This document shows positions 17,425 through 47,354 of a stretch of DNA of 64,000 bases, one piece after another. Numbering within the stretch: position 1 is the first letter of the stretch; the number at the start of each line of letters is the position of its first letter. The DNA is taken from positions 62,001 to 126,000 of the forward strand of contig JAVKOQ020000013.1 of the NCBI GenBank assembly GCA_031835245.2, read 5' to 3'. The notes beneath the pieces are model-generated. The model was given only the letters and a program-made list of their open reading frames with translations. It was not told the DNA's origin and did not search any database. Source of the DNA: Balamuthia mandrillaris (Eukaryota). Position numbers and translations under genes: made by a program.

Positions 17425-20008
17425 CCTTCTTGACGCTGCTTACCCGTCAAACTAAAGTTTGAGTTGGGAGAGGTGCACCCCGCCTTTGGCGCTGCCCTTC
17501 GCATCCAACTGGCAGAGCCCAAGAACAAAGGCACTGAATTCCAATTGCGTGTCTACTACGAGACCACTCCACAAAGTTCTGGTCTCCAGTGGCTTCCTCC
17601 CAGGTTTGCTTATGCTTCGCTCGTTCTCTTGTCCCTTCTCTCTCTCTCTCTCTCTTGTATCAACACCAAGACTCACCACTGTCTTGTTACATGGACAGCC
17701 AAACAGAAGGAAAGAAGCACCCTTACCTGTTCACCCAGTTCCAGGCCATCCACGCTCGTTCCGGAGTACCCTGCCAGGACACGCCCGCCATCAAGATGAC
17801 GTACAGCGGCCACCTTACAGTACCTCAGCCGCTGGTTGCGTTGATGAGCGCCATCTCACAAGGTTCTGACGAACTGCCCGACTCAAAGTCCACCACATAC
17901 CATTTCGAACAACCTGTCGCTATTCCTGTGAGTTATCCCTCTTGGTCCTCTTTATTCATGCTTTAACTTGTTAATCGTTTGTTTGCCATTACAGTCGTAT
18001 CTGTTGGCGTGGGTTGTAGGTGACTTGGTTTCTCGAGAGATTGGTCCTCGCTCTAAGTACGTTTCAAGTGCTCTTTTCTCTCCTTCTCCCTTGTACGTCA
18101 TTCCTGCCTTAATGCTCACTGTTGTGACGCCTCAAAAGAGTGTGGAGTGAACGAGAGAAGGTAGATGCTGGAGCGTATGAGTTTGCGGAAACGGAGGACT
18201 ACCTTAAGACCGCTGAAGAGCTGCTTACTCCTTACGAATGGGGCAGATACGATATCCTCTTGCTACCTGGAAGCTTTCCTTATGGTGGAATGGAGGTTTG
18301 ACTATTTTTACGTGTCACTAACCAAGGCCTGCTTAGCCAGTATACTGAAACATAATCCTTTGTTGGTATTCTTTTATGCTGATAGAATCCATGCCTTACC
18401 TTTGTGACACCAACCTTGTTGGCTGGCGATAGATCTCTTTCTAGCGTTGTTGCACACGAGATCAGTCACTCTTGGATGGGCAATCTAGTTGGATGCCACT
18501 CCTGGGAACACTTTTGGCTAAATGTTAGTAGGACCTAGTCCCTGCTAGTGTTCTGGCATTACTTACTTTACGTCTCGTACCATCTATTAGGAGGGTTTCA
18601 CTGTTTTCGTTGAACGCAAAATCATCGGCCGCATGTTTGGAGAGAAGCAACGCCACTTCAGCGCCATTATTGGATGGAAATCTCTTAAGGATTCTGTTGA
18701 CCATTATGGCACTGAACACCAACAATTCACCACCCTTATTCAAGAGTACGCTTCATTCACACTGTTTTCTCCTCTTTTCTCTCCTGTTCTTTTTGTATTT
18801 CTCGTCTAACTCATCCTCTTTTTCCTAGTCTGAAAGATATCGATCCTGATGATGTACATACCTTTTTTAAAAAATATCTGACTCCCCTTTCTAGCACAAA
18901 CTTATTCTTCTCTCTCTCTCTCTCTGTACTGTGATGCTAGGCATTCAGCTCAGTTGTACGTACCGTGATTCCTGCAATGTGGTTACACTATTATTAATTG
19001 TTACTTACTGTTTATTAAGCCCTATGAAAGAGGATTCCAGTTTTTGTTCTTCTTGGAGCAAACAGTTGGCGGAGCTGAAGTCTTTGAACCATTCTTCCGG
19101 GCTTACGTAAAGGAGGTTAGCACATATTGGCATTTTTTTTTTGGTCTCAATCCCACTTTCTAACCATTGTGCCGTATCTAGTTCTCCGGAAAAACTGTTG
19201 TGTCTGAAGAGTTCAAACTGTTCTTCCTCAACTATTTCCAAAACTTGAAGGACTTTGATCAAGACAAATTGAAACAAATCGATTGGGATGCGTGGTTCTG
19301 CCAACCAGGCATGCCTCCTGTCGACCTGTTGCCCATGTAAGTCTCTCTCTCTCTCTTCCTGATTTGCATAGTATGCTCAACCTCCTTTTTTTCTGTCTTC
19401 AGGTTCGACGCAACGTTGGCCGACGCCAGCAATGCTCTTGCCAAAAAATGGGCATCTGCAACGACCGCCGAAGAGGCGAAAGACGTGAGCTCTGATGATA
19501 TGAAGGGATGGAGCTCCAACCAAATAGGTACCTTTTTATCTGCCATCAATCTTGGTTTTATGCTCGGGATTAACCTTGCTTTTGTTTACAGTTATGTTCC
19601 TCGAAAAGTTGCAGTTGGGAGGCAAGCCACTTCCTCACGATGTGCTCAACCGCATGGACGAGCTGTACAACCTTACCCCTTCCACAAACTCGGAAATTCG
19701 CTTCAACTGGTATCAGCTGTGCCTTAGCGCTGGCCTTGATCGTATATATCCTTTGGTCGTCTCTTTCGTCACCGAACAAGGTACCATGCCACAATGAATT
19801 CTCTCCCCTCCTCTTTTTCTCGTCGCCAAGAAAACTTTAACCAATGTTTGTGTTTTTTGCAGGACGTATGAAGTTCGTGAGGCCGCTTTACAGGAGCTTA
19901 GCGAAAGCACCTGGTGGCGAGGAGTTGGCTCACTCCACCTTCTTGAAGCATCGCTCCTTCTATCACAACATTGCAGCCAAGATGGTGGCTAGGGACCTCG
20001 GCCTTTAA
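16955..20008 (+). CDS. LTA4H: Leukotriene A4 hydrolase-like M1 zinc aminopeptidase, multi-exon
   Basis: First exon MDPHSQ (16955-16972). Motifs: [40 protein letters not shown] (HEXXH), [54 protein letters not shown] stop at 20008. Confidence 0.95.
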
Positions 20009-20099: not shown

Positions 20100-21945
20100 T
20101 CATTTACGGAAGAACCTGGAGAAAGAGCCACGACCATCCTTGCATCTTCGCATGATGATTTCGAGGCCGCGCAGATGAGGCAGGTCCTCCTCTCTACCTT
20201 TCTCCGCCAAGTATCGCACCACATGAGCGTAGATGAGCTCCACTGGCGCCACCAAAAACTCACACTTGTCGTGACCGCAAGCCACGCAGCTGACCTCCAC
20301 CGTCCCTAACTTTATCTGCTCTTCTCCTCCTCCTGTGGTTGCTGCTGTTGATGATGACGATGGGGTTGATGTGGTGAATGAAACATCCTTTGGGGCAAAG
20401 GCCTGTATGCACTCCTCAAAGTAGGCGTTGGCGTAGCCGCAGTGCAGTATGCATACGGGTGACGACTCCAATGCTGATGTTGTGGGCTGCTTTTTCTTGT
20501 TGCTGGACCGTTGCGATTCCTCTCCGCTCTCCTCCTTGTTTCCTTCTCTGTTCCGTTTTGCTTCTTCCTGTTGCTGAGCCTTCACAAAGGCAGCCGCCTC
20601 AAAGCTTTCCTCCAGAGTGTATCTATGAACGGTGTGAGGAAGAGCGAGCGTGAGGGATGAGAAACTGAAGATTGCTTCGCTAACAAACCTTAACAAAAAT
20701 GTTTTTAACTTGTTCTTAAAGTCAAATGCCAAAAGTGAGGAAGAGGAAGACACACTAAGCCTTCCCCAACCGAGGTACCGTAGCACCACTGATAGCGCAA
20801 AGAGTTGTTCCAAAATTGCAGCATCTCCTTTCAGTCTGTGCGACGTTTTTATAGACGGTAAACATTAACCAAACATTAAGCAACGAACGAGAGAGAGAGC
20901 GTGTAAGAAACATACGCTGCGGTTTTGGAGGTGCTGCTAGCAGCTCGTACGGACTTTCGGAAAAAGTTTTGGTCGCTGATGGCAAAGCAGCGGCCAAGGT
21001 CATAGAGGAAACTGGTGGCAAAGGAAAGAGCAAACTCGTCTGACACTTTCTTGCGTGCGGTGGTGGCTTCCTCCGCGTTGCTCTGTTGAGAGAGCAAATG
21101 GCCAATAACTGGATAGAAATCGGTGGAGAGCGTCTCGGCACGAAGGAAGAGATACCTCTCCTCACCATCAAGCGTGACTTCACCTTTAGAGGGGTCACAA
21201 ATGAAGTTGGTAAAGAGAGCAGAGTAAGACTTGTTGGCGGCGGCCTTGCAGTCCTCCTGTAGGGCTATTTCGTCGGTGGTGGCTGTGGAGATGACCGCTG
21301 CGTTGTTCAACTTGGATTCTATTTGCCTGGGGAGATGCTTCTTTCCAAAGACAGGATAGTTGACGGGCACGCCCTTGCTTCTTCCCGCAATGAAGCTATC
21401 GCTCCTCTTGTTCTCGTGTCTGCCAGAGGGAGATGGTGAGGACGATGACGAGACAGAAGACAAGATAAGCTTGTCGCTCCGCATCAAAGCATCTTTGGCC
21501 TCGAGGTTGCAGTAACGAATGACCTGATGGAACTTGCCAGGAGGAAGGTTGTGTGCATTGCAGAAGGAACGGATGGCCTTCTCCACGCCGTCTGGACGGC
21601 AGAGAATTAGGGTACATACGGCATCGCCACGGCCTCTGCATTGAGGCTCCACCGCACACATATCCACGTTGAAGGCGGCTGCCGTCCAGCCGGATGCAAA
21701 TCCACACATGTAATGGCAGACAGAAAGACAGGAGTCGGCTCCTTCCAGCTGTTTGTATTTAAGCAAAGCAGGGTTGAGCTTGGGCACCGCTGATCCGCTT
21801 GTGAGCCAGCAGTGAGCCTCAAAGCTAAAGTCATTGCAGCTCTCAGCGTAAAAGTCCTTCAAGCTCATTTTACATTTATCTGATAGCTCTGGATTAGCTC
21901 CCCCTGAGTAACTGTGTGATGATGATAAAGAGTGTAAGCACTGCA

Positions 21946-21978
<33 letters not shown>

Positions 21979-24190
21979 GCAAGGGAGAGGGAGAGAGAGG
22001 GAGAGGTAGCGACAGAGAGAATGAAGAAATAGGAAGCGTACACAAAATAAATAGGACCCATAGCCCAACGATCCACAACGCTGTCAGTGCCGGTGTGCTT
22101 AGCAAAGGCACGGCAATGACTGCTACCACATACATAACCAAAATCGTAGAGCAGCTTCGCGGTGATCTCCTCTGATAGTTCCGCAAACAGGCTTAGATTC
22201 CGTTTCTTGAGCTCAAACTCTTGCTCCTCAGCTGATGTTGCTGAGTCGCTTGAAGAACTGCTCTTTCCTCCGCCGGTACGAGAAGAAGACTTATCAACAG
22301 ACCCGAAGCCAAAGCCGACAAGTACAGCCTCGCTCTGTTCGCGTTGAGCGTTGCTCTCCAGGTCTTTCTTTTTGAGGCCAAAGAAGCCGAAGTTTTCCCG
22401 CAATGAGGAAAAGAAGTCAACGGCCATGGAGCTTGCTCTCACCAATATAAGTCTTTCCTGACCATAGAGCCTTTCATGTGGATCCATAAACCTTGTGGGC
22501 TTTACAACAATAGTGCCTTTGTTTATTTTTAAAATGTAGGTTAGAGAGTGGTGAGAAGAGAGTTTTAATACAGCGCAACGGGAACTTTACACGAACCTTT
22601 CTCGGTTGAGCGAACACAGTTGCTAAAGTACTCGTCCACTATCCTCTCTGCTCTGTGGAAAAATGGTACGAGGTGTTCAGGTACGATAATGCTGTTTACT
22701 TCCAGCTTGGTGGCTTCAAGTTTACTGGTATCGATGGTTCGTTTCTTTCGCTTGGCTGTCTTTTTCTTTTTCTTGCTTGTTTGCTTACCTTGTGGCTTAC
22801 TGTTCTTGGAACGCTCTTCCTTTTTCTCTTTTTCCTTATTAGCCACCATCTTTCGAAGGTCTGCTCCTTCATTCTTGCTCGCTGCTCTTTTAGAGTGATT
22901 CACGTCGGGAGAGGAGGCCTCGTCTTCAGAGTAACAATCATTCGATGTCAGCTCGTCCGCAGTGGCGCTGTCATCTGCGTCTACTCCAGAGCCAACGACA
23001 GCTGAAGAGGAAGATTGTTGGCTGTCGCTACGATCGCTGCTGTCTTCATCCTCCTTTATCACTTCTCTGTAGAGTACACAGAATAAGCTCATATTAGATT
23101 CACAAATATGATCTGAAGGTGAAAGCGAGTTTTATGCAAACGTACTCTACAACGTTATTAACCCACATACTTGGTTGAGCTTTTAAGGAAAGCATGTACA
23201 AGGCATCCTATTGTTAAAGTTGGGGTTTGAGAGAGAGAAAGAGAGAAGCGCTAGGAGCAAGGAGTGAAGAGTGGAGAGAGGAGAGAAGCAGAGAAACAGA
23301 GGAGAGGAAGAACGCACTTCATCATCAATGTACTGAATATTGCTAAGAAAGTTTTGAACGTCTTTCAACCTTGGAAGGTCAAAAGGCCGACTCTGGCACT
23401 CCGTCACTATTTTCAAACGATCCGAAATCATAGACATAAACTCAAAGTTGATCATTCCGTTCTTTGTGTAAGGTTTGTTTCCCTCCATTATAAAAGTACA
23501 GTCCCGCAAGAACAATGCTTTTCATGTTCTTTGTTAATCGCTGTTATGGGAGAAGAAGAACAAGAAGAACTAGACTTACCAAAATATGGGATTTTGGGAA
23601 ATGGTCGCTTCTTGAACTCAGCGTAATAAGCGCTAAAGTTTTGCTGATTGACCATCAGCTCTTCCATTTCCGCAAAGCTCGTTTTCTCTTTCTCTGGTAA
23701 GATCTGCAAGCAAAGCACGAACCGAGTGAGAACGAGAAAGAACGAGAGAGAGACAGAGAGTAGCCTCACAGACCTCCCAAGCGGCTTTCAAACGTTGAAT
23801 GGAGCTATTATTTAGCGCAGACAACACTTGCATGAGAGAGTTGAAGTTATTGAGTTGAAGAAACCGGTGAGCAAGCTGAATGAACTTTTTGATAACCGAC
23901 ATTTGCTCCTTCACACCACTCGTCATTAGAATCTCCGTTACAACCCAGTAACTCACCTACAGAATAAGGTGCATAGGTATTAATAATGAATAAGATGGAT
24001 GGCAAAACAAGTGATTCCTACCTCATTGAAGCGAGTGATATAAGCAGAAATGTTTGGAGCGGTTAAGTGCTTGTCTCGTTTTTGCCAAGTTTGATTGAGA
24101 AACTCTCGAATGTGAATCTTGCTGAACAAATCAAACTCCAGCATTGTCATCTCTCTACATCCATCGTAAGGATAAGCACTGGAGCAAACG

Positions 24191-24227
<37 letters not shown>

Positions 24228-24943
24228 AGAAAAAACCTAGCGACGGCTATACAAGACATGTCAAGAAAATCCATAGCGGAGGTCTCGGGGCCAGCCGTCG
24301 TGGCTGCAGCTGGAGTGATATCAATTACAGAAGAGGAAGAAGTTCCGCTGGCCACCTGAGAGGCCATCGTTGTCTTTTTAGGTTTGGTTTTGCTGAGGTC
24401 GACCATGGTGGCAGAGTCACCGGGCATTCCCAGCATTCGCTCTCTCTCCTCTTCCTCCGCGTCCCCTCCTTCTCGAGCGTCACTGCTATAACGCCGCCCC
24501 AACAGCATGGGCAGAAAAGGGCTCTTTATGAAACCGTAGTTGGGTGTTGGTCCAACAGAGGCATTGCTCGCGGTGGAGGGCTGCACAGCTTTGAGGAATT
24601 GTAGTTTGAAGGTGTTGACAGCGATGGGTTTGTGTTTCTTTAAGGCGTTCAAGATCCGGTTGATGGAGGTCTTGCTGAAGTCTTGAGGGTAGGTGTTCCA
24701 CCACAACTTCATGAACTCCAGCATCCTGTTTGTTTGTTTGTTTTGTTATTTAGCGTCAAAGTTCCTGCATTAGTATCAGCACAACAAAAAAGAAGAGTAA
24801 GATCAGGTGAGCTCGATAAAGTACGAACCTGTCAGCATTATACTTTTTGGTTTCCTTCTCGCTGTTGCAAGCCACCTCGAACCTTTAGAACAAAAAAGAA
24901 TAAGACAAACCCATGAGAAAGAGAGAGCGTGCACGAGTCAGAG

Positions 24944-24990
<47 letters not shown>

Positions 24991-25358
24991 GAGACAGAGA
25001 CAGAGACAGAGACAGAGACAGAGACAGAGACAGAGACAGAGACAGAGACAGAGACAGAGACAGAGACAGAGAGAGACAGAGAGCAGAGAGCAGAGAGCAG
25101 AGAGCAGAGAGCAGAGAGCAGAACAGTACTGTTCAACCCAAATGGTAAACAGATCACACTCTTGCGGCTTAAAATGTGGGTATGTCAACAAGAAGGCCTC
25201 CATGTTTTCTGTTGAGAACGTTCAATGAGCAAAAGGCAGCAATGAAGACAAAAAGAAGAAGAAAGGAGAGGCAGGTCACCGTCATCCTTTGTGCAAACCA
25301 CGTTCCTAGCGAGCAGTTCAAAAGCCTGCCGCTTCCCCAGCGGCATTTCCGCCGTCAT
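20100..25358 (-). CDS. RasGEF (REM + CDC25) fused to two tandem XylR_N/V4R small-molecule sensor modules, multi-exon
   Basis: REM: MEAFLLTYPHF...LEFMKLWWNTYPQDF. CDC25: SYWVVTEIL...FIQLAHRFLQLNNFNSLMQVLSALNNSSIQRLKAAW...PKIPYF...FLRDCTFIMEGN...INFEFM. Module 1 (~21580-22690): ERLILVRASSMAVDFF...LLYDFG...GPIYFVYSG...SFEAHCW...VCHYMCGFASGW...VEPQCRGRGDAVC. Module 2 (~20230-21230): ERYLFLRAETLSTDFY...FLYDLG...LGWG...ESFEA...PVCILHCGYANAY...VEVSCVACGHDKCEFLVAP. Start (MTAEMPLGK) is inferred. Confidence 0.85.
24946..25120. repeat. Compound intronic microsatellite (GA)n-(GAGACA)n-(GAGCAGA)n
   Basis: Three adjacent unit types seen directly, within an intron of the RasGEF-V4R gene. Confidence 0.9.
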
Positions 25359-41647: not shown

Positions 41648-41926
41648 TCTCTCTTCCTCTCTCTTCCTCTCTTCCTCTCTCTCTTCCTCTCTCTCTTCCT
41701 CTCTCTCTCTCAGTTAAAGTTTTGATTTCCTCTTAGAGGATGGATGGTTGAAGTTGTTGACGTCGTCCTGTTCTTCTTGTTGTGTTGTGTTCTGCAGATT
41801 TTTATGCAAACTGGAAGAAGCGCGTGGATGTCGATGGGAAGAGCTATATACTGGACTTGCACGATTGTCCCTCCTCTGTCGACTCCAATTCAGACAGCAC
41901 AGGTGCATTAATAGACGAGGTCCGTT

Positions 41927-41965
<39 letters not shown>

Positions 41966-44900
41966 ATACCAAGAACTCATTCGCTACCCAACAAACTCAA
42001 AAGCTCATACGCACAGCCGATGGCTTCATATTTATCTACAGCATAAACTCAAGAGAAAGCTTTCAGGACGCTCTTCTCAGTAGGGGCTATGCGCAGAGAG
42101 CACGCGCCGAGGGCACTCCCTTGCCTATGATCCTAGTCGGTAAAGATGCGTCGCAGGCAAAGCCACCGCAAGCCAACAACTCTGCTGCTCCCTCTCCAAT
42201 ATCTCCATTCTCACAGCCTCCTCGCCGCGTTTCAGTATTTGTTCATCCATTACTACCACAAACGTTCCATCCGACAACTGCCTTACCTTCGCCAGCAAGA
42301 GAGCAAAGAGGACGAACTGTTGGACCCGCTCCTGCTGTTGACCTGCGACAAGTAGATAGAGATGAAGGAAGAAGAGCTGCTCTCAACTTTGAATGTCCCT
42401 TTCGAGAAATCCCAACGTTCGTTCCTGAGGAATCTGCCAGCTGCTTCCTTACACTCGTCAAAGAGATTGTACGGTATAAACAGCTGCAACAACAGGCTGC
42501 AGAGGGAGGAACGAAACTCAATCCTTCGCGAGCAACAACGCAGGCTGCCAAGGAGGCACGCAAATCCAAGTTTCGCTTTACGGTGATGAATATGGAGGAC
42601 ATCAAGTTTGAACAAGTACAAAATTCCACACAACAGCCTCGCATCATTGCTGCCAGCATTATGCGAGTGGTGGAACGAATTACCTACGAGAAGTACCCCT
42701 GTATGACCTCCTCCTTTCTTTCTAATGTCTTAAGCCGAGAAGCTTCTTATCTGAACGTTTCCATTTGCTTTTATGCAGACCCTGCCCTTACAGCCAGTTT
42801 TCTACTTACGTACCGAAGCTTTATAACACCTTCTGAGTTTATGGAGCTACTGTTCGAGCGTTATATGATAGCACCCTCACCAGGCATGCGACCCTTAGAT
42901 GCTCAGTCTTTTGTAGCTACTGTACAAACTCCCGTACGACTTCGGTACTAATCCTAGCTCATCTCACGCTTCTCTCTCGCTTCTCTCTCCCAAGAGCTTT
43001 CTGTACGTTTACTCATCGTAATGCTACTATTGTTCAGAGTCTTCAATGTATTGCGGCTTTGGGTTCTTCATCACTTTTATGACTTTGAAGAAGATACCCA
43101 ATTAATGGCGACTCTTCAACAATTCATTGTATGCATTACGGTTTCTTCATAATCTTGTTAAGTTGTTGTCTAACTGTCGACTTAATTGGTACATTCAAAA
43201 AGGATGGTCCTATGAAAGCACACAGTCCGTCATGCGGTGAACAATTAGATAATCTGATCCAACGTCAAGTAAACTTGCTTTCTCTCTCTCTCTCTCTCTC
43301 TCTCATTCTCACCCTAAAAAAAATTACAGCTTGTGAAGCGGAGCAAACAACGGGAGCTGATGTTTGATGTACCGCCTCCCAAACCCATATTACCAAAGAA
43401 GCGGCTTACTCTGGGCGAGTTCAATTTCTTGGACTTACACCCGTTAGAGGTAGCGCGACAACTTACGTTGATTGATCACAAGTACTATAAAGCCATTACA
43501 CCCAATGAGTGCCTGCTTTGGCATAAACTAAGAAGCTCGGAAGAAAAGAAGAAAATATGCCCGAATGTCAGCGAAATGATTAACCGTTTTAATAGGGTCT
43601 CTCCCTCTCTTGTTCCTTCTCCCTTCTTCTGGTTTCATACAGTGCCTCATACTTAAGTTTATAGGGAAGCTTGTTTGTACGAGCTGAAGTGGTTTTATTA
43701 GAAAAAGCGAAAGCTAGAGCCAGTTGTATTTCACGTTGGATACAGGTTGCACAGGTTAGAGCTCTCTCTCTCTCTCTCTCTCCCTTGTTATTTCTCCCAC
43801 TTAAATTTGTTTCCATTCAATACAGGCATGTCTCTCTTTGAACAACTTCAATGGTACCATGATGATTGTTAGTGCTCTGGAGGATACTGCCATATATCGC
43901 TTGAAAAAAAGTTGGAAACTGGTATCGAAAAAAGCGGTACAGTGCTATGAGGACATTAAAGTGGTGGTGGAGGCCAGAGGCGGCTACCCTAACCTCCGTG
44001 CTGCTTTAAAGAACCGAACTGGTCCCCTTATCCCGTACCTCGGTACTTCCCTCTCTGTTTCTGTTTTTTGTTTATGTTCTTTTGTCAAATATGGATTCTC
44101 TTGGCTTTTTCTTATGTTGAGTTTTGGATAATAGGGTTGTTTCTCTCTGACTTGCTGGTATTAGATGATACTATGCCAGACTATTCAGATGAACACGCCC
44201 TACTCATCAACATCGAGAAATGTGAACGAGTGGCAAAAGTGATACACAACCTGCAGGCTTGGCAACAAAGTCCCTATTGCCTTACCTCAGTGCCTGCAAT
44301 AGGTAACTTTCCTTTCCGTTCAGTTCTCTCTTCAAGTTGATTCTTACAGTTTTGTGATACCTCCACTTAAACAGAGGCATATTTATCAGAAGATGTACCA
44401 TACGAAGAACAGGAATTATATAGAATGTCGTGTAAAGTAGAGCCCACAGATTCAAGACCAGCACCAACTGCCCCATCATCACCCTCATCTGGCAGTGCCT
44501 CTGCACCTTCCACACTATCCCGAAAAACTGTTGTCTTCCAAAACGAGACGAAAGCCAAAACGATCGCTGCTGTACCTCAGCGCACCACCGTAGCCTCCAA
44601 CACCATCTTTGCGTCACCATCTACAACGTCAAACACAACCACGGTGAGCACCTCGGCGTCCTCTCCAGCTGTACCCGTCCGACCGCATCGTCCTACTCCA
44701 CCAATGCTTAGCGCTCCTTCTCGTTCCACTTCCACGAGCACTCTGGAAGACCTCTCCAAAGTGCGCCATTCCAATTGGCCCTCCTCGAATCTTTCATGTT
44801 CTCTGGGCTCTCTTCCTCCGCTTCCGCAATTGCCGCGGGCGAAGCAGACTGTTACTTCGTCTACTCCTCCCCCAATTCCTCCTTCCTCTTCAAAACCTCG

Positions 44901-47354
44901 CTCGTTGTCAGGAGCAAATACCGCGAATAATTCCGTTCATAAACAAGTGCCCACATCAGCTCCACAATCTCCTGTACGGCTTCCTGCTGCATCGCCAACT
45001 TTAACAGCTCAAACTCGTGCATCACCTCCAATTCCTTCTTCTCCAGTTCTTTCGTCTTCTCCCCAAACCCCTCCCAGAAGTAATCGGCCTACCCTTACTT
45101 CTTCAACTGGGGGATTACCTACTCTATCCTCTCTTCCTCCCGTTTCTTCTCTCCCTCCGCTTCCTCCTCTCCCAACTGAATCTGATGTCACATCATCAGT
45201 ATTGCCGACAGCATTACCACCTTTGCCAAGCACCGAATTCTCTTCATACTTTTCTCCAACGGATAAACGTCGGTCTGGTGGGAATAGGGTGGCCACGCTG
45301 CCAGCTAGAGTTAATCACGAGAAGCCCGCTCCTCCTTCAAGAGCGGGTAAGGCTACCTTCTACTCCGAACAACAATTATCCTCGATTGCCACGGTACCCA
45401 CCGCCACTACTACTCCTGCTGTGCAACATCCTTTTCGTCAGTCCTCGTCCTCAGAACCCAACAGAGCTAGAGCAGAAGCCATCAGTGTCAGTACCAATAA
45501 CGATGGGCAAGGTGGCGGTGGTTTCCTCCTCAACAAGGCTAGAAAGCCTTTGGCCAAGAATTTCGAGGATATAGTGGGTCAAGTAGAGCGGTTGGCCGCC
45601 AACTTGCGAGGAGAGGCTTTGAGCAAAGCTATACAAGAATGGTTGGAACGATGGGACAAATCAGAGGCTGTTGTATCTCAAGGTGGGCACAGTCCCTTCA
45701 AGCGAGCCTTGCTCCACAGCACGGCCTTAGAGGCCATCTTGAAGCTCCTTCTCACTTCGGAGGGACTGGAGAGAAAAGATGCCACCAACGAAGCCGCCTT
45801 TCAGCTGCTCTCGCGAACGTTGGTCGGGCGACAGCTCTTCATCAAAGACGTTTGTACGTTTGTGACTCGGCTGACTGCCAACTCAGAGTTGAGCAGCATT
45901 CTGAAGGCACAAGAGGGAGGAGAAGCCTCAGCAGGCCTCAAAGAGGCTCTAGTGGCTGTGATTGCCGCATTTAAGCTTCAGCCCTTGGACTTGGAATTAC
46001 TGGAAGACCTGACTGAGTCCAATCAGAGAGCAACGGAGATAATGCTCTCCCTACAGGAAAAGGAGGACATGGAAGGCGCTCACTCCCTTCACATCAACGA
46101 GGAGAAGATTGAACTGAGCTTCCGTCTCGTATTGACCGAGGAGAGCATTACCGATATCATTCGTAAGCTCCGCTCGGTGGATCCCGCAGGAACAAGACAG
46201 ACCATAACTTACCATCCGCAACTCTTCTCACAGCTGGAGGAAGCCATCACCCTTTGCAGAAAGGAGAAGCCGCTTCGTCCCGAAACGTTGGAATTACTAA
46301 AAGAGTTTTTCACCTTCTTCCAAGCTCGTCTTCGCGCTCAAGCTTCCGAGGACGAAACCAATCTCAGCGACAGCCTTCGCTCTGTGGCCGAGGACCAATT
46401 GGACAGTTTGGACCTCCACGTGCAACAGCTTTGGGACCAAATGTATCTTTTGCATCGTCGCGTGATGAAGCTTCACCATCTAACTCAGAGCTCACCAACA
46501 ACACAATCCCCAACGGAGAGTCCACAGTACCAATTGCAGGTCGAGCAAGCAAACGCGGAGAATCTACAGATGACACGCAAATTACTGAGCAGAATAGACC
46601 TCATTGAAGGCAAGCTCAACTCCTTTGTCGTCTACTACGAAGGCCTCATCAACGGAAACTTGAACCTTGCTGGCATCGGGCCTCACGAAGCGCCCAGCAG
46701 GCGAAGCAGTTATGCCATTCAGGAAGCCCTTTTGGCCAGCAACACGGAGTTAGGCAACAGCGGCCAGGTCATCCCGCGCGGTGGCAGCAGACGCCAGCGA
46801 TCCAGACAACGAACCATCCTGGAGGCCTCACCCTCCGTCTCCGAAACCATTCGTGGCGTCTATGCCAACTTGTTGCGTCTCAGAAACCTACAGAGAACTC
46901 TGGAAGCAAAGCTCTCCCCACAAGCGCTTGTCTCGTCAGGCAAACTGATGACCAACAATGCTGACGAGGAAGAAGAGGACGATACCGACTTTTTCGATGA
47001 TATCAACGCTAATACTTTGCCGTCTTCCTCTCTCAACAATAACAACAAGAACAACAGTCGTTCAACATTTTTGGATGAAGGCGACGACCTTGCGGATTGG
47101 CTCTCTTCCTATGACGATAGCTCTCCTTCCTCCACTCACCCTTCCATAACATCAAGGGAAGGAAGTGAACTTTTGCATTCACCCAAAGCAACCAAAGTTG
47201 GCGCTCGTAGTTGGAGATCAAGCGCTCCTCCTTCAAGACATAAGGCCAGGGACTCTCCTTCTTTCGTGGGTAAGCGCAGAACGTTCTCGCCAGGTGCCGC
47301 CCAGCTTCCTTTGGATGCCACTGCCGACGATACTTCTACCGGCACCATTACTTG

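What the first reader, a model, noticed from the sequence alone, without database searches (positions are those of the whole stretch)
20100..25358. RasGEF fused to two prokaryote-type XylR_N/V4R ligand-sensor modules: candidate small-molecule-gated Ras switch
Seen: a complete REM+CDC25 RasGEF continues, via GT-AG introns and a Ser/Lys-rich linker, into two tandem ~200-aa modules with the same motif order (GxI/V...ERx(I/L)(L/F)(V/L)RA...LYDxG...SFE...VC-x4-G(F/Y)...VExxC-x3-G-x3-C). Established: this order matches XylR_N+V4R sensory domains of the phenol/hydrocarbon regulators DmpR/MopR/PoxR, where Cys/Glu/Cys/Cys bind zinc and the domain dimerises; both copies keep those four residues. Inference: a bacterial sensor was recruited, duplicated into an intramolecular pseudo-dimer, intronised and wired to Ras activation, giving a one-component intracellular chemosensor (e.g. 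for prey-derived aromatics). I know of no characterised RasGEF-V4R protein.
Basis: partly seen in the sequence, partly recalled or inferred. Interest (0 to 1): 0.88.

Follow-up and report, generated by a model that had tools for sequence, protein, structure and literature searches.

The report
Ras activator with twin bacterial sensors
In the amoeba Balamuthia, one spliced gene joins a predicted activator of Ras-type cell switches to two copies of a sensor fold likely taken from bacteria; the same fusion occurs in two other amoebae and probably lets a still-unknown signal, likely not a phenol, control that switch.

Summary
The fusion is real. The minus-strand gene (25358-20100, 14 exons, 1337 aa; Balamuthia mandrillaris QOT17_002542) encodes a weak REM, a clear CDC25 domain, a ~130-aa low-complexity linker and two XylR_N+V4R modules. 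A spliced contig joins CDC25 to module 1 in frame. A paralogue's model matches the PoxR/MopR sensor fold (Z 18). The four zinc residues are kept in both modules. The architecture is not a one-off: 9 RasGEF fusions were found (6 Balamuthia, Luapelamoeba, Cavostelium, one unnamed), and the same tandem sits on a RasGAP and on tyrosine-kinase-like kinases. The phenol idea is weakened: 0 of 28 eukaryotic modules keep the His or Trp anchors of MopR/DmpR, and their nearest kin are a kinase-linked bacterial V4R subfamily, not DmpR-type regulators. Best reading: an intramolecular pseudo-dimer that regulates the GEF in response to an unknown, probably non-phenolic ligand (about 0.45). A ligand-free scaffold or a redox switch remain open. 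Ligand binding, zinc, pairing of the modules and GEF gating are all untested. No paper found in the library searched.

The parts
20100..25358 (-). Whole gene, 14 exons, 1337 aa: REM-CDC25-linker-V4R-V4R (B. mandrillaris QOT17_002542; NCBI model truncated at 1127 aa)
   Evidence: Gene model; spliced joints; identity to P0004
24584..25331 (-). Short, divergent REM (RasGEF_N) domain, aa ~10-118, exons 1-4
   Evidence: Pfam RasGEF_N E 0.0043, below cut-off; paralogue model residues 20-431 align weakly to REM-CDC25 structures
23166..24262 (-). CDC25 (RasGEF) catalytic domain, aa 226-461, with hairpin motif PYFALFLRDCTFIMEGN and a C-terminal QPSMW motif
   Evidence: Pfam E 2e-59; Epac2 E 1e-38, SOS1 3e-30; motif in 9 of 9 fused GEFs
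22700..23165 (-). Low-complexity linker, aa 462-590, acidic/Ser-rich then Lys-rich
   Evidence: spliced contig crosses it in frame; pLDDT under 50 in paralogue model
21551..22699 (-). XylR_N+V4R module 1, aa 591-903; zinc-site residues C848, E871, C874, C882; Phe and Asn at the MopR His106 and Trp134 positions
   Evidence: paralogue module 1 vs PoxR Z 18.0, rmsd 3.0, 196 of 200 residues
21245..21550 (-). Inter-module linker, aa 904-1005, partly conserved among the five close paralogues
   Evidence: Alignments
20199..21244 (-). XylR_N+V4R module 2, aa 1006-1305; zinc-site residues C1221, E1273, C1276, C1284; Leu and Leu at the His106 and Trp134 positions
   Evidence: Pfam V4R E 7e-6; paralogue module 2 aligns to V4R/Bet3 folds at Z 8-10
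20103..20198 (-). Conserved basic C-terminal tail (ends SRFFRK; GYFSRLFRK in four paralogues)
21912..22041 (-). Intron inside module 1; the one junction in the V4R half that no listed contig or joint bridges
   Evidence: Inferred from frame and motif, same as NCBI model; DNA contig of another strain matches up to 21913 and then diverges
20623..20915 (-). Last two introns (20915-20836, 20688-20623) with the exon between them; missed by the NCBI model
   Evidence: Spliced contig X1 record 1; paralogues continue the same way

Best explanation
One spliced gene encodes a CDC25-type Ras/Rap exchange factor joined by a long flexible linker to two V4R-fold modules, which are predicted to bind zinc, likely pair up within the chain, and likely switch the exchange factor on or off in response to an unknown small molecule that is probably not a phenol. 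Shown: single frame, splicing, domain order, kept C/E/C/C residues, loss of the His/Trp phenol anchors, spread across Discosea and Evosea. Inferred: a bacterial kinase-linked V4R sensor entered an early amoeba once, was duplicated once, and the interlocked dimer of the bacterial sensor became an intramolecular pair. Module 2 (uniformly hydrophobic pocket positions, slowest-changing in the Balamuthia paralogues) would be the structural partner; module 1 (variable pocket positions) would be the ligand reader, retuned in each paralogue. Because the output lies N-terminal, behind 90-185 disordered residues, the helical lever of DmpR cannot be the coupling; control would be by docking and release, or by relocating the protein, as in Epac or RasGRP (recalled).
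For: Spliced contig X1 record 3 (1718 nt) runs from module 1 (22045) into CDC25 (at least 23954) with introns removed, while a DNA contig keeps intron 22596-22517. Transcriptome-derived proteins of Luapelamoeba hula and Cavostelium apophysatum have the same order. Fold: PoxR/MopR/DmpR Z 16.9-18.0 against Bet3 Z 11 or less; the match includes PoxR's N-terminal arm from residue 9, the part that interlocks the dimer in DmpR (PMC7264223), and both arms are modelled at pLDDT about 85-93. Zinc residues: C, E, C in 28 of 28 modules, last C in 27 of 28. Strain variants listed in the coding region: 21 silent vs 4 changing (X1), 10 vs 1 (X2). The nearest prokaryotic kin are N-terminal sensor-position domains: of 64 scanned, 52 carry PAS, 36 a histidine kinase, 7 GGDEF. 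The tandem is reused on three signalling outputs: RasGEF, RasGAP, kinase. 9 of 9 fused GEFs share a QP[SG][LMI]W motif right after CDC25 that the window's other RasGEF lacks.
Against: No ligand, zinc, pairing or activity was measured. The pocket residues that are near-invariant in the bacterial subfamily (His105 131 of 140, His134 140 of 140, Asn158, Ser162) are not kept in the eukaryotic modules (His105 6 of 14, His134 2 of 14 in module 1), which fits loss of ligand binding as well as retuning. No ligand is known for the bacterial subfamily either. V4R folds have other uses: redox sensing by the same three cysteines in MsvR (PMC3729527) and scaffolding in Bet3 (PMC2253512). Structures are of the paralogue P0006 (46% identical), not of the window's protein; its GEF part is modelled poorly (rmsd 13 to known GEFs). 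A confident N-terminal arm may be recalled from solved dimers and is not proof of pairing. The tree does not give the direction of transfer (unresolved base, 87/87; module 1 clade only 77/9), and the bacterial sample was chosen by similarity to the query.
Confidence: 0.45

Rival explanations
1. The tandem is a ligand-free structural module: a zinc-stabilised pseudo-dimer that localises the protein or brings GEF, GAP and kinase partners together, much as the Bet3 pair does in TRAPP.
For: Zinc site and core glycines are kept while the ancestral pocket residues are not. Module 2 has Leu in place of the Gly of the GP pocket motif in 13 of 14 sequences. Basic amphipathic helices lie between the modules in 5 of 14 proteins (2-9 of 200 shuffles as good). 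All named outputs are signalling enzymes of GTPase/kinase type.
Against: Fold and sequence are far closer to ligand sensors than to Bet3 (Z 18 vs 11). The Luapelamoeba module 1 is still 48% identical to bacterial sensors and keeps His134. The window's own inter-module linker has no such helix, and its tail helix is not above shuffles (31 of 200).
Confidence: 0.3
2. The signal is redox or zinc status: the cysteines release zinc or form disulfides on oxidation and so switch the GEF, as proposed for MsvR.
For: The cysteines are the most conserved residues. MsvR uses three V4R cysteines for redox-dependent change (PMC3729527, passages). Module 1 of the window carries extra cysteines near the site.
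Against: The same C/E/C/C set is a structural zinc site in DmpR, a ligand sensor (PMC7264223), so its conservation does not point to redox.
Confidence: 0.15
3. One reading: a DmpR/MopR-like sensor of phenolic compounds from prey.
For: Best structural and profile matches among solved proteins are the phenol sensors. XylR senses toluene/xylene with Tyr in place of the His (PMC7264223), so plain aromatic hydrocarbons are not excluded.
Against: 0 of 28 modules have His at 106 or Trp at 134; these anchor the hydroxyl in all characterised phenol sensors (PMC10715001). Identity to sigma54-type sensors is 17-23% against 26-48% to the kinase-linked subfamily; the tree separates them (100/100). The phenol sensors top the lists because they are the solved members.
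Confidence: 0.08
4. Two neighbouring genes, or a decaying remnant, wrongly joined.
For: Two junctions in the linker (23317-23208, 23145-23067) rest on one contig of a run whose RNA status is a guess; no listed record spans the whole gene.
Against: Continuous frame, spliced contig across the boundary, the same fusion in 8 other proteins of at least three genera, mostly silent strain variation.
Confidence: 0.02

Closest known systems
Sensory (XylR_N+V4R) domains of PoxR, MopR and DmpR/CapR (PDB 5FRV, 5KBE, 6IY8)
   Same: Fold (Z 16.9-18.0, rmsd about 3), N-terminal interlocking arm, C/E/C/C zinc site, motif order.
   Different: No His/Trp phenol anchors; two copies in one chain; output is an N-terminal RasGEF behind a disordered linker, not a C-terminal sigma54 AAA+ domain; eukaryotic and intron-containing.
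Unnamed bacterial V4R subfamily at the N-terminus of PAS/histidine-kinase/GGDEF proteins (Planctomycetota among others)
   Same: Closest sequences (26-48% over the trimmed alignment), shared extra N-terminal VxVP helix, YSGW and SFE..W motifs.
   Different: Single module per chain in all 142 examined; invariant His105/His134 pocket that the amoebal modules mostly lost; itself without a known ligand in the papers found.
Epac2/RapGEF4 (PDB 3CF6) and other ligand-controlled CDC25 GEFs (RasGRP)
   Same: Closest solved CDC25 domain (E 1e-38); a small-molecule-binding domain and a REM-CDC25 unit in one chain. Gating by cAMP is recalled; the PDB title names the cAMP complex.
   Different: Sensor is a cyclic-nucleotide domain N-terminal to the GEF; gating is proven there and untested here.
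Bet3/TRAPPC3 pair of TRAPP
   Same: V4R-related fold in a eukaryote (Z 8-11), works as a pair, tied to small-GTPase exchange (PMC2253512, PMC10933270).
   Different: Much more distant; mouse TRAPPC3 has replaced the zinc site (PMC10933270); separate subunits; Rab GEF chemistry is not CDC25. The amoebal modules are a separate entry of V4R into eukaryotes (inferred).
MsvR of methanogens
   Same: V4R with three conserved cysteines used in signalling (PMC3729527).
   Different: Archaeal HTH transcription factor; not among close hits.

Membership tests
CDC25-family RasGEF | CDC25 homology domain | tested here: met
   Pfam PF00617 E 2e-59 over 2-179 of 181
CDC25-family RasGEF | Helical-hairpin motif intact | tested here: met
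   IPYFALFLRDCTFIMEGNK aligns without gaps to Epac2 IPFMPLLIKDMTFTHEGNK
CDC25-family RasGEF | REM domain | tested here: inconclusive
   RasGEF_N E 0.0043, 17.7 bits vs cut-off 28.3; helical region aligns weakly in the paralogue model
CDC25-family RasGEF | Exchange activity and substrate (Ras, Rap, Ral) | not testable with these tools
   Needs an assay
XylR_N+V4R sensor fold | Fold | tested here: met
   Paralogue module 1 vs PoxR Z 18.0, rmsd 3.0, 196 aligned; module 2 vs MJ1460 Z 9.7, rmsd 4.5, 143 aligned; profile vs MopR E 6e-13
XylR_N+V4R sensor fold | C/E/C/C zinc-site residues | tested here: met
   Both window modules; 27-28 of 28 eukaryotic modules per position. Zinc binding itself not measured
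XylR_N+V4R sensor fold | Interlocked dimer | tested here: inconclusive
   N-terminal arms present and confidently modelled; no contact data were returned
DmpR/MopR/PoxR phenol sensors | His and Trp that anchor the phenol hydroxyl | tested here: not met
   Phe/Asn in module 1, Leu/Leu in module 2; 0 of 28 (numbering)
DmpR/MopR/PoxR phenol sensors | Sigma54 AAA+ and HTH output domains | tested here: not met
   No such Pfam match in P0004-P0006
DmpR/MopR/PoxR phenol sensors | Grouping with XylR-type sensors in a tree | tested here: not met
   Four plasmid XylR-type rows separated at 100/100; MopR, PoxR and DmpR themselves were not in the tree; long branches flagged
Bet3/TRAPPC3 | Closest fold match and loss of zinc site | tested here: not met
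   Z 11 or less vs 18 for PoxR; zinc residues kept
Ligand-gated GEF (Epac-like) | Ligand changes exchange activity | not testable with these tools
   Needs ligand screen and GEF assay
MsvR-type redox sensor | Redox-dependent change through V4R cysteines | not testable with these tools
   Cysteines present; behaviour unknown

The most novel reading that the evidence does not exclude
Amoebae acquired a bacterial small-molecule sensor once, turned it into a single-chain pseudo-dimer and use it as a plug-in receptor on Ras activators, a Ras inactivator and kinases: an undescribed family of intracellular chemoreceptors wired straight into Ras signalling, with the six Balamuthia GEF paralogues reading different ligands through diverged first modules. 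It would be a second, independent entry of the V4R fold into eukaryotic GTPase control, beside Bet3/TRAPP.
Probability: 0.35. Interest if true: 0.85.

Novelty: new variant of a known kind. Interest (0 to 1): 0.68.

Why it matters
The one paper on V4R and eukaryotes that I read at length treats Bet3 as the eukaryotic descendant of a prokaryotic domain (PMC2253512). Here V4R modules with an intact zinc site sit in ordinary signalling proteins of two amoebozoan phyla. If they bind a ligand, they give amoebae a direct chemical input to Ras, which drives feeding and movement in these cells (recalled from Dictyostelium), and they name a concrete, assayable receptor family in a poorly studied human pathogen and in harmless relatives. 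Even as a scaffold, the tandem is an unannotated eukaryotic module, and the bacterial donor subfamily is a large orphan sensor group.

Tried and rejected
Complex prediction of the tandem with CDC25 (paralogue P0006): no answer, score 0.00, alignments not used; no evidence either way. No whole genome is held, so paralogues come from protein searches and the count is a minimum. One search listed no holder on record as RNA; the laid reads are what count. Second lay listed no joint for intron 22041-21912; depth was 0-4. Viral contigs: nothing with A2 or P0040; viral structures: no match at E under 0.001. Atlas feature search gave V4R clusters at 0.84, a lead only; later Atlas look-ups did not complete. 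First model (tandem alone, 8 rows) had pLDDT 54; the 24-row full-length model replaced it. Word-based searches found no eukaryote other than Balamuthia; only the profile search did, of which I saw 150 of 1220 hits, so absence from Acanthamoeba or Dictyostelium is not shown. Asgard origin: not tested directly; two archaeal genomes with the subfamily gave no profilin or actin match (the profilin control rang nowhere), and 1 of 151 genomes of one's phylum had a full-strength match. Membrane-helix idea for the window's tail: not above shuffles. Earlier scan notes held no matching eukaryotic case.
Full report
Gene structure. The finding lies on the minus strand. Thirteen GT-AG introns give one open frame from ATG 25358 to TGA 20102-20100, 1337 aa. 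Laying four runs gave 10 joints that match 10 of my 13 introns, all in contigs of run X1 (RNA is the tool's guess), four of them also in raw RNA reads. One 1718-nt contig runs, spliced, from 22045 in module 1 through the linker to at least 23954 in CDC25. Two further contigs cover 20228-21703. A contig of run X2 keeps intron 22596-22517, as DNA should. No listed record bridges 21704-22044; that intron is inferred from frame, motif and the NCBI model. The protein is B. mandrillaris QOT17_002542; the NCBI model equals mine to residue 1115 and then reads into an intron. Listed strain variants in coding sequence are 21 silent and 4 changing in X1, 10 and 1 in X2; the changing ones lie mostly in linkers and inserts.

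Domains. CDC25 is clear (Pfam E 2e-59; closest solved relatives Epac2, RalGPS1, RasGRF1, SOS) and keeps the hairpin motif. REM is weak. Pfam V4R and XylR_N matches to the window's pieces are all under cut-off, but a profile of five paralogous and three bacterial stretches hits MopR (E 6e-13), PoxR (3e-6) and DmpR (4.5e-5). Because the complete spliced protein was not available as a stored protein, the paralogue P0006 (46% identical) was folded. The full-length model has pLDDT about 85-95 over most of both module cores and under 50 in the linkers. Module 1 matches PoxR at Z 18.0, rmsd 3.0, 196 of 200 residues; Bet3-type chains reach Z 11; module 2 matches the same fold class at Z 8-10 where it is the best-aligned part. 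The GEF part of the model is poor.

Spread. Five close Balamuthia paralogues share the architecture. A profile search of 1.84 billion representatives gave 1220 hits; of the 150 shown, 2 were known paralogues, 9 were further tandem proteins and 139 had one module near the N-terminus. The nine are: RasGEF fusions from Luapelamoeba hula and Cavostelium apophysatum (both transcriptome-derived), a sixth Balamuthia GEF and an unnamed one; a Balamuthia RasGAP fusion; two unnamed tyrosine-kinase-like kinases; two with no recognised output, one of which may be a cut kinase gene. Balamuthia and Luapeleamoeba are Discosea, Cavostelium is Evosea. A metagenome contig holds another kinase fusion beside MKT1 and C2 genes, so that type is eukaryotic too. 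All 9 fused GEFs end CDC25 with QP[SG][LMI]W; the window's other RasGEF and Epac2 do not. With two controls only, this hints at one fusion event.

Origin. Of the 139 single-module hits, 64 were scanned: 52 PAS, 36 histidine kinase, 7 GGDEF, no sigma54 domain among the 25 families shown of 26. A scan with one member found 22 loci: 20 Planctomycetota and 2 uncultured archaea; this is one query's neighbourhood, not the subfamily's range. The tree used 57 rows by 224 columns: 28 eukaryotic modules, 18 of 33 dereplicated bacterial-type rows (15 dropped for time), 6 of 22 genome loci, 5 plasmid rows. All 14 second modules form one clade (100/100); the 14 first modules are one side of a weak branch (77/9); four XylR-type rows are set apart (100/100); the base is unresolved and long branches were flagged. 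One clade for all 28 is not rejected (p-AU 0.57). So one old duplication is well supported, one acquisition is allowed, and the bacterial direction rests on distribution, not on the tree. An Asgard source was not tested directly; an earlier scan note reports a tandem V4R in a Heimdall archaeon, and no such protein was among the 150 hits shown.

Pocket. With MopR numbering read, the zinc residues C155, E178, C181 are kept in 28 of 28 modules and C189 in 27 of 28 (the miss has a very long insert before it). His106 and Trp134 are kept in 0 of 28. These two anchor the phenol hydroxyl (PMC10715001, PMC7264223; PMC9556785 reports that mutating either abolishes activation). The bacterial subfamily has its own near-invariant set (His105, Phe106, His134, Asn158, Ser162, Trp165). 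First modules vary at these places, even among the five close paralogues; second modules are uniformly hydrophobic. This fits retuned ligands in module 1, and equally loss of binding.

Mechanism. In DmpR the N-terminal arms interlock two sensor domains, and the signal leaves by a C-terminal helix; the paper suggests the sensor dimer restrains the output (PMC7264223). Both arms are present here, so pairing within the chain is the simplest reading, but no contact data were obtained. The output is N-terminal and 91-185 disordered residues away, so control would need docking or relocation. I put ligand-dependent regulation at 0.45, scaffold 0.30, redox 0.15, phenol 0.08, artefact 0.02.

Literature. 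No paper held V4R with RasGEF, or V4R, XylR, amoeb- and horizontal gene transfer together; V4R domain with eukaryot- and amoeba gave one review on LECA (listing only); none of the 15 listed contained '4-vinyl reductase'; one search gave four unrelated listings; one search gave none. The library lacks most subscription journals. The databases already carry Pfam V4R plus RasGEF labels on three paralogues, so the architecture is visible but, as far as these searches reach, not discussed. Seen: PMC2253512 first of two parts of the text; passages only of PMC9556785, PMC10933270, PMC10715001, PMC3729527, PMC7264223, PMC4053784 (the last has no main-text mention of V4R or RasGEF). No supplements were read; the Acanthamoeba transfer tables could list such genes. 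Epac and RasGRP gating and the roles of Ras in amoebae are recalled.

Verdict. Observation confirmed; interpretation partly supported. A real, conserved, apparently undescribed fusion and a wider amoebozoan module; new variant of a known kind; interest 0.68.

Noticed in passing
window 41760-47350, + strand: A second RasGEF gene with an N-terminal Ras-like GTPase domain (Pfam Ras E 4e-5, RasGEF_N 4e-10; CDC25 exons at 43432-44095) and a long Ser/Pro-rich tail: a GTPase and a GEF in one chain. Gene model not built.
   Followed up: partly
L028 5367-10877: Eukaryotic contig with a stop-free 1836-codon frame for a tyrosine-kinase-like kinase plus tandem V4R, next to MKT1 and C2-domain genes.
   Followed up: partly
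P0013-P0159, L001-L022: A large bacterial V4R subfamily at the N-terminus of PAS/histidine-kinase/GGDEF proteins with an invariant His105/His134/Trp165 pocket and no ligand found in the papers searched.
   Followed up: partly
P0126 (Balamuthia, NCBI name 'Neurofibromin 1'): RasGAP fused to the same tandem V4R; its first module keeps His105 and His134. The same sensor fold would sit on both an activator and an inactivator of Ras.
   Followed up: partly
P0040, P0093, P0103, P0126, P0012 inter-module linkers: A basic amphipathic helix between the modules in 5 of 14 proteins (2-9 of 200 shuffles as good), possibly for membrane binding.
   Followed up: partly
P0005 and P0009: Two paralogues have near-adjacent locus tags (QOT17_003230, 003235) and the same longest-contig length, suggesting a local duplication; P0005's model has a 25-aa hydrophobic insert at the site of the window's intron 22041-21912, likely a wrong splice acceptor.
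   Followed up: no
window about 17900-19990 (+) and from 26160 (+): Neighbours: a leukotriene A4 hydrolase-like aminopeptidase upstream on the other strand (Pfam E 1e-17), converging on this gene with about 110 nt between stops; and what looks by eye like a sodium:solute symporter (no Pfam match for the one exon tried).
   Followed up: no
window 24945-25125: Long AG/AC microsatellite inside intron 2; the pile of reads there is a repeat artefact.
   Followed up: yes
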